The notes beneath the pieces are model-generated. The model searched no databases and was not told the origin of the DNA. It worked only from the letters and a program-made list of their open reading frames with translations. DNA of 64,000 nucleotides from Escherichia coli (GTDB taxonomy: Bacteria > Pseudomonadota > Gammaproteobacteria > Enterobacterales > Enterobacteriaceae): assembly GCF_001677475.2 (NCBI RefSeq), contig NZ_CP015229.1. One strand, 5' to 3'. A program made the position numbers and the translations under genes. This document shows, in pieces, positions 18,955 to 23,538 of this stretch; positions within the stretch are counted from its first letter, which is position 1, and each line of letters opens with the position of its first letter.

Positions 18955-19288
18955 CTGAACAGAGCGCGGAGTACCGCGCTCTGTTTAACGATACAGTATC
19001 TCACCATAAGATAAAATATTGCTATATTCTGCTGGGTAATTCCCTGCTGATTTAGCATGTTATATCGCGTTATTTCGCTGCTTTCGAAATAACGCATCAA
19101 TTTAATTTTCACACTTCCTACCAGAAATATACTCACGCTAACAATCATTATTCTGCTTAGTAAAAAACGCGTAAATATTTTGCGCCAAAATGTGGCGCAT
19201 GTTTCATTTTCGCACCATTGCGGGGCGCTGTTTTTATTATTTCCTGTCTACACTCAGCTTATTGCGACGCGAAATCGTGCGCAAAAGC

Positions 19289-19304
19289 TGGCACTACTTT
19301 TGCT
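19289..19304 (+). promoter_or_regulatory. Sigma54-type (-24/-12) promoter upstream of yhdW
   Basis: TGGCAC-N5-TTGCT matches GG-N10-GC consensus; ~80 bp upstream of yhdW ATG. Confidence 0.6.
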
Positions 19305-19384
19305 TATAAGAGGATGGCCACAGACAGGTAAAAGACGTTTCCCAAATGTCCTATAACGATAATTTTCGCCTCACAGGAAGCATT

Positions 19385-20410
19385 ATGAAAAAGATGATGA
19401 TAGCCACACTGGCTGCCGCCAGCGTGCTGCTTGCCGTTGCAAATCAGGCGCATGCTGGTGCGACGCTTGATGCCGTTCAGAAAAAAGGTTTTGTGCAATG
19501 CGGGATCAGTGATGGATTACCTGGGTTCTCTTATGCCGATGCTGACGGTAAGTTTTCAGGTATTGATGTAGATGTTTGTCGTGGTGTTGCGGCAGCTGTA
19601 TTTGGTGACGACACGAAAGTGAAATATACCCCGCTCACTGCAAAAGAACGCTTCACGGCTTTACAGTCAGGGGAGGTGGATTTGCTCTCCCGTAATACGA
19701 CCTGGACTTCATCTCGCGATGCCGGGATGGGAATGGCATTTACCGGCGTCACTTATTACGACGGCATTGGCTTCCTGACTCACGATAAAGCGGGACTAAA
19801 AAGCGCGAAAGAACTGGATGGCGCTACCGTCTGTATTCAGGCGGGTACTGATACCGAACTCAACGTTGCCGATTACTTTAAGGCAAACAATATGAAGTAC
19901 ACACCAGTGACTTTCGATCGCTCTGACGAATCAGCGAAGGCACTGGAATCTGGTCGCTGCGATACGCTGGCCTCGGATCAATCACAACTGTATGCCCTGC
20001 GCATCAAATTAAGCAACCCGGCTGAATGGATTGTCTTACCGGAAGTTATCTCCAAAGAACCGCTTGGGCCGGTAGTTCGTCGTGGCGATGATGAATGGTT
20101 CTCGATTGTACGCTGGACGCTTTTCGCCATGCTGAATGCTGAAGAGATGGGCATCAATTCCCAGAACGTCGATGAAAAAGCGGCTAATCCAGCAACGCCT
20201 GATATGGCACATCTGCTGGGTAAAGAAGGCGATTACGGCAAGGATCTGAAGCTGGATAATAAATGGGCTTACAACATCATCAAACAGGTGGGTAACTACT
20301 CGGAAATTTTTGAGCGTAACGTAGGTTCAGAAAGCCCGCTGAAAATTAAACGTGGGCAAAATAATCTCTGGAATAACGGCGGTATTCAGTACGCGCCGCC
20401 CGTGCGTTAA
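19385..20410 (+). CDS. yhdW: Amino-acid ABC transporter periplasmic binding protein
   Basis: 341 aa from MKKMMIATLAAASVLLAVANQAHA signal peptide; intact frame. Confidence 0.85.
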   Translation: MKKMMIATLAAASVLLAVANQAHAGATLDAVQKKGFVQCGISDGLPGFSYADADGKFSGIDVDVCRGVAAAVFGDDTKVKYTPLTAKERFTALQSGEVDLLSRNTTWTSSRDAGMGMAFTGVTYYDGIGFLTHDKAGLKSAKELDGATVCIQAGTDTELNVADYFKANNMKYTPVTFDRSDESAKALESGRCDTLASDQSQLYALRIKLSNPAEWIVLPEVISKEPLGPVVRRGDDEWFSIVRWTLFAMLNAEEMGINSQNVDEKAANPATPDMAHLLGKEGDYGKDLKLDNKWAYNIIKQVGNYSEIFERNVGSESPLKIKRGQNNLWNNGGIQYAPPVR

Positions 20411-20477
20411 GTCGGTGTGAGGTAACGAGCGTCGCTACGGCGGCGCTCTCTTCAGCGTTATGCTTTCCGAGGTTTCT

Positions 20478-21659
20478 ATGTCTCATCGCCGCTCAACCGT
20501 TAAAGGCTCACTCTCCTTTGCCAACCCTACGGTTCGCGCCTGGTTATTCCAGATCCTTGCCGTTGTTGCTGTTGTCGGCATTGTTGGTTGGTTATTTCAC
20601 AACACTGTAACGAATCTCAATAATCGTGGCATTACTTCAGGTTTTGCCTTTCTGGATCGCGGCGCTGGCTTCGGTATTGTCCAGCATTTGATCGATTACC
20701 AGCAGGGCGACACCTACGGACGCGTTTTCATTGTTGGCTTACTCAATACGCTACTGGTTTCTGCATTGTGTATTGTATTCGCTTCTGTTCTGGGCTTCTT
20801 TATCGGTCTGGCGCGACTTTCGGATAACTGGCTGCTACGAAAGCTTTCCACAATTTATATTGAGATCTTCCGTAATATTCCGCCGCTGCTGCAAATCTTC
20901 TTCTGGTACTTTGCCGTGTTGCGCAATTTGCCCGGACCACGCCAGGCTGTGAGCGCGTTTGATCTGGCCTTTTTGAGCAATCGTGGGCTTTATATTCCGT
21001 CACCACAGCTGGGAGACGGATTTATTGCGTTTATCCTGGCTGTTGTTATGGCTATAGTCCTTTCTGTTGGGCTATTCCGCTTTAATAAAACATACCAGAT
21101 AAAGACCGGACAGCTGCGCCGCACCTGGCCGATCGCCGCAGTGTTGATCATTGGTTTGCCTTTACTGGCGCAATGGCTTTTTGGCGCAGCACTACACTGG
21201 GATGTCCCAGCCCTACGAGGCTTTAACTTCCGCGGCGGGATGGTTTTAATTCCTGAACTGGCAGCCTTAACGCTGGCACTTTCGGTTTATACCTCTGCAT
21301 TTATCGCCGAGATTATCCGCGCTGGGATCCAGGCAGTGCCTTATGGTCAACATGAAGCTGCTCGGTCACTGGGATTACCCAACCCGGTTACGCTACGCCA
21401 GGTCATTATTCCCCAGGCACTGCGGGTGATTATTCCACCGTTAACCAGCCAGTATCTCAACATCGTCAAAAACTCCTCTCTTGCCGCCGCTATTGGCTAT
21501 CCCGATATGGTTTCGCTGTTTGCCGGCACCGTGCTGAACCAGACGGGGCAAGCCATCGAGACGATAGCCATGACCATGTCGGTCTATCTGATTATCAGCC
21601 TGACTATCTCGCTGCTGATGAATATCTATAACCGCCGCATCGCGATCGTTGAACGCTAA
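20478..21659 (+). CDS. yhdX: Amino-acid ABC transporter permease
   Basis: 393 aa multi-TM; ORF extends upstream to 20460. Confidence 0.85.
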   Translation: MSHRRSTVKGSLSFANPTVRAWLFQILAVVAVVGIVGWLFHNTVTNLNNRGITSGFAFLDRGAGFGIVQHLIDYQQGDTYGRVFIVGLLNTLLVSALCIVFASVLGFFIGLARLSDNWLLRKLSTIYIEIFRNIPPLLQIFFWYFAVLRNLPGPRQAVSAFDLAFLSNRGLYIPSPQLGDGFIAFILAVVMAIVLSVGLFRFNKTYQIKTGQLRRTWPIAAVLIIGLPLLAQWLFGAALHWDVPALRGFNFRGGMVLIPELAALTLALSVYTSAFIAEIIRAGIQAVPYGQHEAARSLGLPNPVTLRQVIIPQALRVIIPPLTSQYLNIVKNSSLAAAIGYPDMVSLFAGTVLNQTGQAIETIAMTMSVYLIISLTISLLMNIYNRRIAIVER

Positions 21660-21668
21660 GGAGTCATG

Positions 21669-22772
21669 ATGACAAAAGTATTGCTGTCTCATCCCCCGCG
21701 CCCGGCGAGCCATAACTCAAGCCGCGCTATGGTGTGGGTGCGAAAAAATCTGTTCTCCAGCTGGAGCAATAGCCTACTGACTATTGGCTGCATATGGTTG
21801 ATGTGGGAACTGATCCCACCGTTGCTGAACTGGGCATTTTTGCAGGCTAACTGGGTTGGCTCAACGCGTGCCGACTGCACAAAAGCCGGTGCCTGTTGGG
21901 TCTTCATCCACGAACGATTTGGTCAATTTATGTATGGGCTTTACCCACACGACCAACGCTGGCGATTTAACCTCGCATTACTGATTGGGCTTGTGTCGAT
22001 CGCACCAATGTTCTGGAAAATACTCCCGTATCGCGGTCGCTATATTGCGGTATGGGCGGTGATTTACCCACTGATTGTCTGGTGGCTGATGTATGGCGGG
22101 TTTCTTGGTCTTGAGCGGGTTGAAACCCGGCAATGGGGCGGGCTGACGCTAACTTTAATTATTGCATCAGTTGGGATTGCGGGGGCGCTGCCGTGGGGGA
22201 TCTTACTGGCGTTAGGTCGCCGCTCCCATATGCCGATTGTGCGTATCTTATCGGTCATTTTTATCGAGTTCTGGCGCGGTGTACCGCTGATTACCGTTCT
22301 GTTTATGTCTTCGGTCATGCTGCCGTTGTTTATGGCAGAAGGCACCAGTATCGACAAATTGATCCGCGCGCTGGTTGGCGTGATCCTGTTTCAGTCAGCA
22401 TATGTTGCGGAAGTCGTGCGAGGCGGATTACAGGCGCTGCCTAAAGGGCAATATGAAGCGGCAGAGTCGCTGGCGTTGGGTTACTGGAAAACCCAGGGGC
22501 TGGTTATTCTGCCACAGGCGTTGAAGCTGGTGATTCCTGGGCTGGTAAATACCATCATCGCACTTTTCAAAGATACCAGCCTGGTGATCATCATCGGGTT
22601 GTTCGATCTTTTCAGTAGCGTTCAGCAGGCAACCGTTGATCCCGCCTGGTTGGGTATGTCGACAGAAGGGTATGTTTTCGCCGCACTGATCTACTGGATC
22701 TTCTGTTTCAGCATGTCACGTTATAGCCAACATCTGGAAAAACGTTTTAACACCGGGCGTACACCGCATTGA
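21669..22772 (+). CDS. yhdY: Amino-acid ABC transporter permease
   Basis: 367 aa multi-TM. Confidence 0.85.
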
Positions 22773-22779
22773 GGACACT

Positions 22780-23538
22780 ATGAGCCAAATTTTACTGCAA
22801 CCTGCTAACGCGATGATTACGCTGGAAAACGTCAATAAATGGTATGGACAATTCCATGTTTTGAAAAATATAAATTTGACCGTGCAACCGGGAGAACGGA
22901 TCGTTCTGTGTGGCCCTTCTGGTTCCGGTAAATCGACAACCATTCGTTGTATTAATCATCTGGAAGAACATCAACAGGGACGGATCGTGGTGGATGGCAT
23001 CGAACTTAATGAAGATATCCGCAATATTGAGCGCGTCAGGCAGGAAGTGGGAATGGTCTTTCAGCATTTCAATCTCTTCCCTCATCTGACCGTTCTACAG
23101 AACTGTACCCTGGCACCGATTTGGGTACGCAAGATGCCTAAAAAAGAGGCTGAAGCTCTGGCGATGCATTACCTTGAGCGGGTGAGAATTGCCGAACATG
23201 CCCAGAAGTTTCCCGGACAGATTTCGGGTGGTCAGCAGCAACGCGTTGCCATAGCACGTTCACTTTGTATGAAACCAAAGATCATGCTATTTGATGAACC
23301 TACGTCGGCGCTCGATCCGGAGATGGTGAAAGAGGTGCTGGATACGATGATTGGACTGGCGCAATCGGGTATGACAATGTTGTGTGTAACGCATGAGATG
23401 GGGTTTGCGCGAACCGTCGCTGACCGGGTGATTTTTATGGAGCGTGGGGAAATAGTGGAGCAAGCTGCACCTGATGAATTTTTTGCGCATCCTAAATCAG
23501 AGCGTACGAGGGCATTTTTATCGCAGGTAATCCATTAA
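22780..23538 (+). CDS. yhdZ: Amino-acid ABC transporter ATP-binding protein
   Basis: 252 aa; Walker [10 protein letters not shown], signature LSGGQQQR. Confidence 0.92.

What the first reader, a model, noticed from the sequence alone, without database searches (positions are those of the whole stretch)
19175..19310. Sigma54-type promoter and upstream palindrome in front of yhdWXYZ
TGGCAC-N5-TTGCT at 19289..19304 matches the sigma54 -24/-12 consensus with correct spacing, about 80 bp upstream of the yhdW ATG. About 100 bp further upstream is a perfect palindrome TGCGCCA-N5-TGGCGCA at 19181..19199. Its arms resemble NtrC half-sites but the spacing is not canonical. This fits reports, as I recall them, that yhdWXYZ is nitrogen-regulated.
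Basis: partly seen in the sequence, partly recalled or inferred. Interest (0 to 1): 0.45.

Follow-up and report, generated by a model that had tools for sequence, protein, structure and literature searches.

The report
Known nitrogen-regulated sigma-54 promoter of yhdWXYZ
This is the already catalogued sigma-54 promoter of the E. coli amino-acid transporter operon yhdWXYZ with its upstream NtrC enhancer, so the finding is correct but ordinary; the only new detail is that the eye-catching palindrome hides a normally spaced NtrC box, one of a conserved pair.

Summary
Both sequence features are at the stated coordinates. TGGCAC-N5-TTGCT (19289-19304) is the only exact match in the 64 kb window. 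TGCGCCA-N5-TGGCGCA (19181-19199) is a perfect palindrome. The locus is E. coli acrEF-yhdV-yhdWXYZ.

The promoter is already known. It is a database-listed sigma-54 promoter. Sigma-54 ChIP-seq found exactly this 17-mer, and RpoN holoenzyme binds the spacer in vitro. NtrC ChIP-seq peaks here, and yhdWXZ falls in an NtrC expression module.

I add comparative evidence. The -24/-12 element is kept in all 79 Enterobacteriaceae orthologues that have upstream DNA. The palindrome overlaps the distal one of two conserved NtrC-like boxes (19181-19197 and 19211-19227). These boxes are 30 bp apart in 78 of 80 loci. With a matrix built from known NtrC boxes they rank 1st and 4th of 63,984 positions in the window.

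The conserved bases fit the canonical 17-bp register (TGC-N11-GC). The "GC" that completes the N5 palindrome varies between genera, so the perfect 19-bp palindrome is an Escherichia peculiarity. An RNA hairpin or terminator reading is rejected.

A nearly invariant 13-bp box (19243-19255) between enhancer and promoter is unexplained.

Verdict: real, correctly interpreted, already known, low interest.

The parts
19288..19304 (+). Sigma-54 promoter core CTGGCAC-N5-TTTGCT. GG of the -24 element is at 19290-19291 and GC of the -12 element at 19302-19303.
   Evidence: Read directly. Only exact match in the window. Identical to ChIP-seq site OS34 of PMC4591121. TGGCAY-N5-TTTGCT is present in 79/79 orthologous loci with upstream DNA; T19289, GG, C19292, A19293, T19299-19301, GC and T19304 are invariant while the spacer varies.
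19314..19316 (+). Inferred transcription start, about 11-13 nt after the -12 GC, giving a 5' UTR of about 70 nt. Not mapped here.
   Evidence: Inference from the standard sigma-54 promoter geometry. No start-site data were available to me.
19181..19197 (.). Distal NtrC-like box in the canonical 17-bp register, TGCGCCA-AAA-TGTGGCG. Centre 19189, about -126 from the inferred start.
   Evidence: Highest-scoring 17-mer of 63,984 in the window with a matrix from 8 NtrC boxes of glnA, glnH, nac and astC (12.9 bits). T19181, G19182, C19183, C19185, T19191, G19192, G19194, G19195 and C19196 are kept in 74-81 of 81 sequences.
19181..19199 (.). It overlaps the distal box and is perfect only in Escherichia-type sequences.
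   Evidence: The 71-nt stretch containing it is at least 99% identical in 3875 of 5355 E. coli genomes with a match. In other genera the left arm is TGCTCYA, and 19197 (G48/T19/A14) and 19198 (C48/T32) vary.
19211..19227 (.). Proximal NtrC-like box CGCACCA-TTG-CGGGGCG. Centre 19219, about -96, exactly 30 bp from the distal box.
   Evidence: Rank 4 of 63,984 (10.4 bits). Together with the distal box it is the only pair of hits at or above that score lying 28-33 bp apart in the window. G19212, C19213, A19214, C19215, G19223, G19225 and C19226 are kept in 80-81 of 81 sequences. The 30-bp spacing holds in 78/80 loci.
19243..19255 (+). Nearly invariant box CCTGTCTACACTC, preceded by a T-rich tract (19233-19242). 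Function unknown; candidates are a bending-protein or other transcription-factor site, or a sigma-S/sigma-70 type -10 element.
   Evidence: Each position is kept in 71-78 of 81 sequences. The box sits at a fixed 67 bp from the distal box, while its distance to -24 is 41-43 or 52-54 bp. It is absent from the Cedecea-type loci.
19262..19286 (.). Dyad TTGCG-N13-CGCAAAA abutting the -24 element. The arms are conserved but the spacer length varies between genera.
   Evidence: The 11-bp length difference between the two promoter classes lies in this interval. There is no NtrC-matrix hit here (best -0.45 bits).
19385..23538 (+). The yhdW-yhdX-yhdY-yhdZ operon driven by the promoter. yhdW (19385-20410) is intact in this window.
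   Evidence: ORFs and RefSeq annotation of the matching K-12-like region.
18958..18985 (+). 12-bp-stem hairpin just after the yhdV stop codon (18954). It is the likely yhdV terminator, which makes a second terminator at the palindrome unnecessary.
   Evidence: Equivalent GC-rich hairpins occur upstream in other genera.

Best explanation
The interval 19175-19310 is the regulatory region of yhdWXYZ and works like a classical Ntr promoter. RNA polymerase with sigma-54 sits in a closed complex on TGGCAC-N5-TTGCT (19289-19304). Under nitrogen limitation, phosphorylated NtrC binds two 17-bp boxes centred at 19189 and 19219. These are 30 bp (about three helical turns) apart, on one face of the DNA, about 126 and 96 bp upstream of the start. 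NtrC oligomerises there, loops to the promoter and uses ATP to open it. The result is transcription of an amino-acid ABC transporter for nitrogen scavenging.

These happen to give E. coli a second, N5-spaced right arm. Both boxes are weaker than those of glnA or glnH.

What is shown and what is inferred: sigma-54 binding is shown in vivo and in vitro by others. NtrC occupancy is shown only at ChIP-seq resolution. Assigning NtrC to these two boxes is my inference from the matrix score, the conservation and the geometry. The start site is also inferred.
For: Sigma-54:
- Exact consensus, unique in the window.
- ChIP-seq site OS34 with this sequence, PSSM 12.5, third highest in that table.
- RpoN holoenzyme gSELEX peak in the yhdV-yhdX spacer, with and without NtrC.
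- Conserved in 79/79 orthologues, with a variable spacer and invariant GG/GC.

NtrC:
- ChIP-seq peak 17 is assigned to yhdWXYZ with 16-fold enrichment.
- yhdWXZ is in the NtrC-3 iModulon.
- The operon is called NtrC-regulated in bioRxiv 770727.

The two boxes:
- Ranks 1 and 4 of 63,984 positions with a matrix built from glnA, glnH, nac and astC boxes, and the only such pair 28-33 bp apart.
- All strong boxes in those control promoters use N3 spacing.
- The conserved columns are TGC-N11-GC in both boxes.
- Box-to-box spacing is 30 bp in 78/80 loci.
- The enhancer-to-promoter distance falls into two classes, 108-110 and 119-121 bp. They differ by one helical turn, so the helical phase is kept.
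Against: - NtrC-alone gSELEX with acetyl phosphate did not list this spacer among 93 peaks at its 40% cut-off, although it found glnA, glnH, astC, glnK, gltI and nac. In vitro affinity is therefore not high.
- Each box has 4 mismatches to TGCACCA-N3-TGGTGCA. Consensus matches at that level are at chance frequency in the window.
- Both boxes score below all eight training sites.
- The published NtrC ChIP-seq interval lies at the promoter rather than over the boxes. The same is true for glnA, glnK and glnH, so that resolution cannot assign the site.
- I found no footprint, EMSA or mapped start for this promoter.
- My matrix is small, and its sites were chosen by resemblance to the consensus.
Confidence: 0.82

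Rival explanations
1. The functional distal site is the 19-bp palindrome itself. NtrC, or an NtrC dimer in an unusual geometry, recognises TGCGCCA and TGGCGCA separated by five bases instead of three.
For: - In E. coli the N5 reading matches the half-site consensus 12/14, against 10/14 for N3.
- If the two central bases are ignored it would score 19.2 bits, as good as glnA boxes.
- TGGCGCA is a half-site used in an astC box.
- The palindrome is the majority allele in E. coli.
- GCA at 19197-19199 is present in 48 of 81 sequences, and A19199 in 75.
Against: - The G and C that would mirror the invariant G19182/C19183 are variable (19197: G48/T19/A14; 19198: C48/T32). G19195/C19196, the N3 mirror, are kept in 76 and 80 of 81 sequences.
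- None of the strong boxes in glnA, glnH, nac or astC uses N5.
- The published NtrC box is 17 bp.
- A two-base insertion would rotate one half-site by roughly 70 degrees (inference).
Confidence: 0.12
2. The palindrome is a transcript-level element: an intrinsic terminator or RNA hairpin (7-bp stem, 5-nt loop, T-rich tail) that stops read-through from yhdV before the yhdW promoter.
For: The pattern scan flags 19181-19199 followed by TGTTTCATTT, and also 19208-19225, as terminator-like on the + strand.
Against: - Across 77 distinct orthologues the two central stem pairs are broken in 33 and 56 sequences with no compensating change. The covariation score equals the shuffled mean (0.170 vs 0.168).
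- The RNA fold is no more stable than shuffles (z = -0.52).
- No Rfam family matches.
- yhdV already has a 12-bp-stem hairpin at 18958-18985.
- Three terminator-like hits in 900 nt against 1.1 expected is weak.
Confidence: 0.03
3. The conserved upstream elements are bound mainly by a regulator other than NtrC, for example Lrp or an unidentified factor. NtrC would then act from elsewhere or indirectly.
For: - Lrp ChIP signal at yhdW that changes with condition (bioRxiv 276808).
- NtrC alone did not enrich this spacer in vitro.
- Conservation extends beyond the 17-bp boxes (TTT at 19178-19180, A.GTT at 19199-19203), and a 13-bp invariant box at 19243-19255 matches no NtrC box.
Against: - A sigma-54 promoter needs an enhancer-binding ATPase, and the in vivo evidence points to NtrC.
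- The two boxes are the best NtrC-matrix hits in 64 kb and have the textbook three-turn spacing.
- Lrp is not an activator of sigma-54 open-complex formation (established knowledge).
Confidence: 0.06

Closest known systems
glnAp2, the NtrC- and sigma-54-dependent promoter of glnALG in E. coli
   Same: - A -24/-12 promoter.
- Two NtrC boxes about three helical turns apart, roughly 100-140 bp upstream (glnA boxes 32 bp apart, yhdW boxes 30 bp).
- More degenerate GC-containing dyads between the enhancer and the promoter.
   Different: - glnA boxes match the consensus with 1-2 mismatches and score 20-21 bits; yhdW boxes have 4 mismatches and score 10-13 bits.
- The yhdW enhancer lies 12-14 bp closer to the promoter.
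- glnA gave the top NtrC signals in vitro and in vivo, while yhdW gave none in vitro at the cut-off used and a moderate signal in vivo.
glnHp2, the NtrC/sigma-54 promoter of an amino-acid ABC transporter that has an IHF site between enhancer and promoter
   Same: - Same operon type (periplasmic binding-protein transporter) and the same regulators.
- A conserved element lies between enhancer and promoter.
- The helical phase between enhancer and promoter appears to matter.
   Different: - glnH has a perfect IHF core, AATCAAGGAGTTG, next to -24 (seen).
- The yhdW box CCTGTCTACACTC is not an IHF consensus. The nearest IHF-like string, ACTCAGCTTATTG at 19252-19264, matches 7 of 9 positions and is not kept in other genera (my reading).
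astCp2, an NtrC/sigma-54 promoter with GC-rich variant boxes
   Same: It uses the variant half-site TGGCGCA/TGCGYCA, the same arm as in the yhdW palindrome (TGCGTCAGAATGGCGCA).
   Different: The astC box has canonical N3 spacing and lies more than 200 bp upstream. astC was detected by NtrC gSELEX at 70%.

Membership tests
Sigma-54 (RpoN) dependent promoter | GG and GC doublets exactly ten bases apart within TGGCAC-N5-TTGCW | tested here: met
   19289-19304 is an exact match and is unique in the window.
Sigma-54 (RpoN) dependent promoter | Correct strand and a plausible distance upstream of a gene | tested here: met
   It is on the + strand and ends 80 nt before the yhdW ATG at 19385. In orthologues it starts 91-115 nt before the ATG.
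Sigma-54 (RpoN) dependent promoter | Evolutionary conservation of the -24/-12 doublets with a free spacer | tested here: met
   79/79 loci. GG, GC and the flanking T's are invariant and the spacer letters vary.
Sigma-54 (RpoN) dependent promoter | Occupancy by sigma-54 holoenzyme | not testable with these tools
   Reported by others: ChIP-seq site OS34 (PMC4591121) and a gSELEX peak at 3,417,032 (PMC8743547).
Sigma-54 (RpoN) dependent promoter | Transcription start about 12 nt after the GC, and dependence on rpoN | not testable with these tools
   No start-site or rpoN-mutant data for yhdW were found in the papers I could read.
NtrC enhancer (upstream activating sites) | 17-bp dyad TGCACCA-N3-TGGTGCA | tested here: inconclusive
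   Both boxes match 10/14 in the N3 register, which is chance level for a consensus count. They nevertheless rank 1 and 4 of 63,984 with a matrix of real boxes, and their TGC-N11-GC core is conserved.
NtrC enhancer (upstream activating sites) | At least two sites on the same face of the helix (about 30-32 bp apart) to nucleate the oligomer | tested here: met
   Centres at 19189 and 19219. The spacing is 30 bp in 78/80 orthologues. The glnA control is 32 bp.
NtrC enhancer (upstream activating sites) | Position about 70-150 bp or more upstream of a sigma-54 promoter | tested here: met
   The boxes start 108 and 78 bp before TGGCAC. In orthologues the distances are 108-110 or 119-121 bp.
NtrC enhancer (upstream activating sites) | NtrC occupancy in vivo | not testable with these tools
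   ChIP-seq peak 17, 16.2-fold (PMC4066584). The resolution does not separate the boxes from the promoter.
NtrC enhancer (upstream activating sites) | Direct binding of purified phosphorylated NtrC | not testable with these tools
   Not tested here. The only in vitro screen I could read (gSELEX, 40% cut-off) does not list this spacer, which suggests low affinity.
Intrinsic terminator / RNA hairpin | Stem pairing maintained in relatives, with compensatory changes | tested here: not met
   Central pairs are broken in 33/77 and 56/77 sequences and covariation equals the shuffles. Fold z = -0.52.

The most novel reading that the evidence does not exclude
The promoter may carry a further, undescribed control layer. 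The nearly invariant box CCTGTCTACACTC (19243-19255) stays at a fixed distance from the NtrC boxes and in helical phase with -24. It could be the site of an unidentified architectural or co-regulatory protein. Alternatively it could be a sigma-S/sigma-70 type -10 element (TCTACACT) giving NtrC-independent expression. Separately, E. coli's extra N5 register could make the distal box a two-register NtrC site with altered affinity.
Probability: 0.2. Interest if true: 0.3.

Novelty: already known. Interest (0 to 1): 0.12.

Why it matters
It matters little beyond annotation. yhdWp is a database-listed sigma-54 promoter, sigma-54 binding to it has been shown experimentally, and NtrC control of the operon is established.

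The comparative analysis gives base-level candidates for the two NtrC boxes. It explains why the conspicuous palindrome looks mis-spaced. It also flags one conserved 13-bp element of unknown function.

These points could help groups now studying YhdWXYZ in colonisation and antibiotic homeostasis (bioRxiv 10.64898/2026.05.04.722672). That work measured yhdW promoter activity without considering NtrC or sigma-54.

Tried and rejected
- Zimmer et al. 2000 and Reitzer & Schneider 2001 could not be read by PubMed id or PMC id. Their content is cited only through later papers.
- The NtrC ChIP-exo paper (PMC9853098) has no supplementary text held and does not name yhdW in its main text. PMC5217608 does not mention yhdW.
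- Consensus counting for NtrC boxes with 3 mismatches is uninformative (24 found, 30 expected).
- The sigma-70 pattern scan gave only chance-level hits, none at the conserved box.
- Rfam search with a permissive threshold found nothing.
- IHF reading of the conserved box: the best string matches 7/9 and is not conserved, so I rejected it as a confident call.
- Fnr/ArcA/NarP: the comparative paper mentions yhdWXYZ only for Vibrionaceae divergons.
- One fetch (L082) landed on the wrong region because strain gw25 carries the W3110-type rrnD-rrnE inversion. glnA was then found in L084.
- gltI, glnK and argT upstream regions gave no strong consensus box within 260 bp and were left out of the matrix.
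- The sigma-S -10 resemblance of TCTACACT rests on my memory of the consensus and was not tested.

Full report
**Observation**

- TGGCAC lies at 19289-19294 and TTGCT at 19300-19304, with a five-base spacer.
- TGCGCCA lies at 19181-19187 and TGGCGCA at 19193-19199, also with a five-base spacer.
- The sigma-54 pattern TGGCAC-N5-TTGCW occurs exactly once on both strands of the 64 kb window, against 0.08 expected.
- With one mismatch allowed the pattern is at chance level, so the motif count is suggestive rather than decisive.
- The palindrome never arose in 100 shuffles.

The surrounding genes are acrE, acrF, a 73-aa lipoprotein gene (yhdV), yhdW, yhdX, yhdY and yhdZ, followed by rrnD. About 5,400 complete E. 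coli genomes carry this region at 95-99% identity. The yhdW ATG is at 19385, not 19386. The promoter element therefore ends 80 nt before it.

**What was already known**

- The exact 17-mer CTGGCACTACTTTTGCT is site OS34 of the genome-wide sigma-54 ChIP-seq map. It is assigned to yhdW, has one of the highest matrix scores in that table (12.5), and is flagged as a promoter already predicted in EcoCyc (PMC4591121).
- RegulonDB listed yhdW among sigma-54 promoters by 2011 (PMC3118216).
- Reconstituted RpoN holoenzyme selects the yhdV-yhdX spacer in vitro, with or without NtrC (PMC8743547).
- NtrC ChIP-seq in nitrogen-starved cells gives a 16-fold peak assigned to yhdWXYZ, and that paper cites the earlier microarray evidence (PMC4066584).
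- yhdWXZ groups with rutABCD in an NtrC iModulon whose activity rises under nitrogen limitation (PMC11748552).
- yhdWp has been used as a 'perfect consensus' sigma-54 promoter in an engineering study, where it was weak (PMC7045595).

**Comparative evidence for the promoter**

I fetched 80 yhdW orthologue loci. They span Escherichia, Citrobacter, Enterobacter, Kosakonia, Trabulsiella, Cedecea, Buttiauxella, Atlantibacter, Siccibacter and other genera.
- All 79 loci with upstream DNA carry TGGCAY-N5-TTTGCT, starting 91-115 nt before the ATG.
- In a non-redundant alignment of 81 sequences, T19289, GG, C19292, A19293, T19299-19301, GC and T19304 are invariant, while the spacer letters change.
- This is the pattern expected of a functional -24/-12 element.

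**What the palindrome is**

The same alignment shows that the region upstream is built of conserved blocks.

The palindrome overlaps the first block, but it is perfect only in Escherichia-type sequences.
- Elsewhere the left arm is TGCTCYA.
- The last 'GC' of the right arm is variable (19197: G48/T19/A14; 19198: C48/T32).
- The bases kept in 74-81 of 81 sequences are T19181, G19182, C19183, C19185, T19191, G19192, G19194, G19195 and C19196.
- Those bases form TGC-N11-GC, the skeleton of the canonical 17-bp NtrC box TGCACCA-N3-TGGTGCA (box as stated in PMC8743547).

A second block shows the same skeleton. It runs 19211-19227 (CGCACCA-TTG-CGGGGCG), with G19212, C19213, A19214, C19215, G19223, G19225 and C19226 kept in 80-81 of 81 sequences.

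The two boxes are exactly 30 bp apart in 78 of 80 loci. That is three helical turns, as at glnAp2, where I measured 32 bp.

**Test against real NtrC boxes**

I fetched the glnA, glnK, glnH, gltI, astC, nac and argT promoters from a K-12-like genome.
- In glnA, glnH, nac and astC the best consensus matches all have N3 spacing.
- I built a matrix from eight of these boxes and scored every 17-mer in the window. Position 19181-19197 ranked first (12.9 bits) and 19211-19227 ranked fourth (10.4 bits) of 63,984.
- These two are the only pair at or above that score lying 28-33 bp apart.
- Both score below all training boxes (13.8-22.3 bits).
- That weakness fits the absence of this spacer from the NtrC-alone gSELEX list, which did contain glnA, glnH, astC, glnK, gltI and nac.

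Caveat: the matrix is small, and its sites were picked by resemblance to the consensus inside promoters known to be NtrC-controlled, not from footprints.

**Register question**

In E. coli the N5 reading matches the half-site consensus better than the N3 reading (12/14 against 10/14). With its two central bases removed it would score 19.2 bits. It is also the majority allele in E. coli: the 71-nt enhancer is at least 99% identical in 3875 of 5355 genomes with a match.

Conservation nevertheless favours N3. The positions that would be the critical GC of an N5 right arm drift freely between genera, while those of the N3 right arm do not. I therefore treat the perfect 19-bp palindrome as a lineage-specific by-product that overlaps a canonical box. 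I give about a one-in-eight chance that the N5 register matters functionally in E. coli.

**Rival: RNA hairpin or terminator**

A pattern scan flags the palindrome plus its T-rich tail as terminator-like. Four results argue against this.
- Across 77 distinct sequences the two central stem pairs are broken in 33 and 56 sequences without compensation, and covariation equals the shuffled value.
- The RNA is no more stable than shuffled sequence (z = -0.52).
- Rfam finds nothing.
- yhdV has its own 12-bp-stem hairpin at 18958-18985.

I reject this rival.

**Geometry**

The distance from the distal box to TGGCA falls into two classes. It is 108-110 bp in 31 loci, including Escherichia and Citrobacter, and 119-121 bp in 49 loci. 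The 11-bp difference is one helical turn. It lies entirely between the CTACACT box and -24, inside a dyad TTGCG...CGCAAAA whose arms are conserved but whose spacer length varies. Keeping the helical phase is what one expects if the enhancer must face the promoter across a short or protein-bent loop.

**Unexplained element**

CCTGTCTACACTC (19243-19255), preceded by a T-rich tract, is kept at 71-78 of 81 sequences per position. That is nearly as well as the promoter core. It stays 67 bp from the distal box.
- It is not an NtrC box.
- It is not a convincing IHF core.
- The sigma-70 scan did not flag it.
- From memory, TCTACACT resembles the sigma-S type extended -10. This is untested.
- Lrp binds this promoter region in vivo (bioRxiv 276808) but I could not place its site.
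- A 2026 preprint reports yhdW promoter activity in LB and induction by lomefloxacin without reference to NtrC. That leaves room for an NtrC-independent promoter.

**Mechanism and confidence**

Under nitrogen limitation, NtrC~P bound to the two boxes activates the sigma-54 closed complex at 19289-19304. The operon for a polar amino-acid ABC transporter is then transcribed from about 19315.
- Shown by others: sigma-54 binding, NtrC occupancy at low resolution, and nitrogen-limited expression.
- Shown here: conservation, spacing, phase and matrix rank.
- Inferred: which bases NtrC contacts, the start site, and any role for the intervening box.

Overall confidence is 0.82.

**Verdict**

The finding is real and correctly interpreted, and it is already known. 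Interest is low (0.12). The residual novelty lies in the unexplained conserved box and the dual-register distal site.

Noticed in passing
window 19243-19255: The 13-bp box CCTGTCTACACTC between the NtrC boxes and the promoter is kept in 71-78 of 81 orthologous sequences at every position and sits at a fixed 67 bp from the distal box. No known site was identified. TCTACACT resembles a sigma-S type -10 element (from memory).
   Followed up: partly
window 19256-19288; loci L002-L081: The enhancer-to-promoter distance is bimodal (108-110 vs 119-121 bp). The 11-bp difference is confined to the TTGCG...CGCAAAA dyad just upstream of -24, so the helical phase is preserved across genera.
   Followed up: yes
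window 19385-20410 vs L001 5686-6710: yhdW is an intact 341-codon ORF in this window. In the K-12-like strain gw25 it is annotated as frameshifted (1025 nt), the known K-12 pseudogene state.
   Followed up: partly
window 19067-19095: Perfect inverted repeat GCGTTATTTCG-N7-CGAAATAACGC between yhdV and the enhancer. Divergent Escherichia loci (L002, L003) keep an altered, shorter version of this repeat (L002 TTATTTCGAA-CC-TTCGAAATAA; L003 imperfect). It is not found in other genera. Function unknown.
   Followed up: partly
window 19131-19153; e.g. L006, L024, L032, L062 about 40 nt upstream of the distal box: Another partly conserved block (ATATTCACGCC.GAAAT in Citrobacter, Enterobacter and Yokenella; ATACTCACGCTAACAATCATTAT in E. 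coli) lies upstream of the NtrC boxes. Not analysed further.
   Followed up: no
loci L063, L064, L068, L070, L075 (Cedecea-type): These loci keep the sigma-54 promoter and TGCTCTG/TGCACT left halves. They have TGCGCCG instead of TGTGGCG in the distal right half and lack the CTACACT box, so they carry a variant architecture.
   Followed up: no
PMC4066584 Table 1 vs PMC4591121 Table 1: The published NtrC ChIP-seq intervals coincide with the sigma-54 motif positions rather than with the upstream NtrC boxes for glnA, glnK, glnH, patA and yhdW. Limited resolution or cross-linking through the DNA loop could explain this. These data therefore cannot place the binding site.
   Followed up: partly
locus L071: A contig titled 'Chryseobacterium sp. 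18061' carries an Enterobacteriaceae-type yhdW locus (91% protein identity, and the same promoter as the neighbouring Citrobacter sp. 18056 record). This is probably a mislabelled or contaminated assembly.
   Followed up: no
locus L082 vs L084 (NZ_CP084898.2): Strain gw25 has the W3110-type inversion between rrnD and rrnE. glnA lies at 3.585 Mb instead of about 4.06 Mb.
   Followed up: yes
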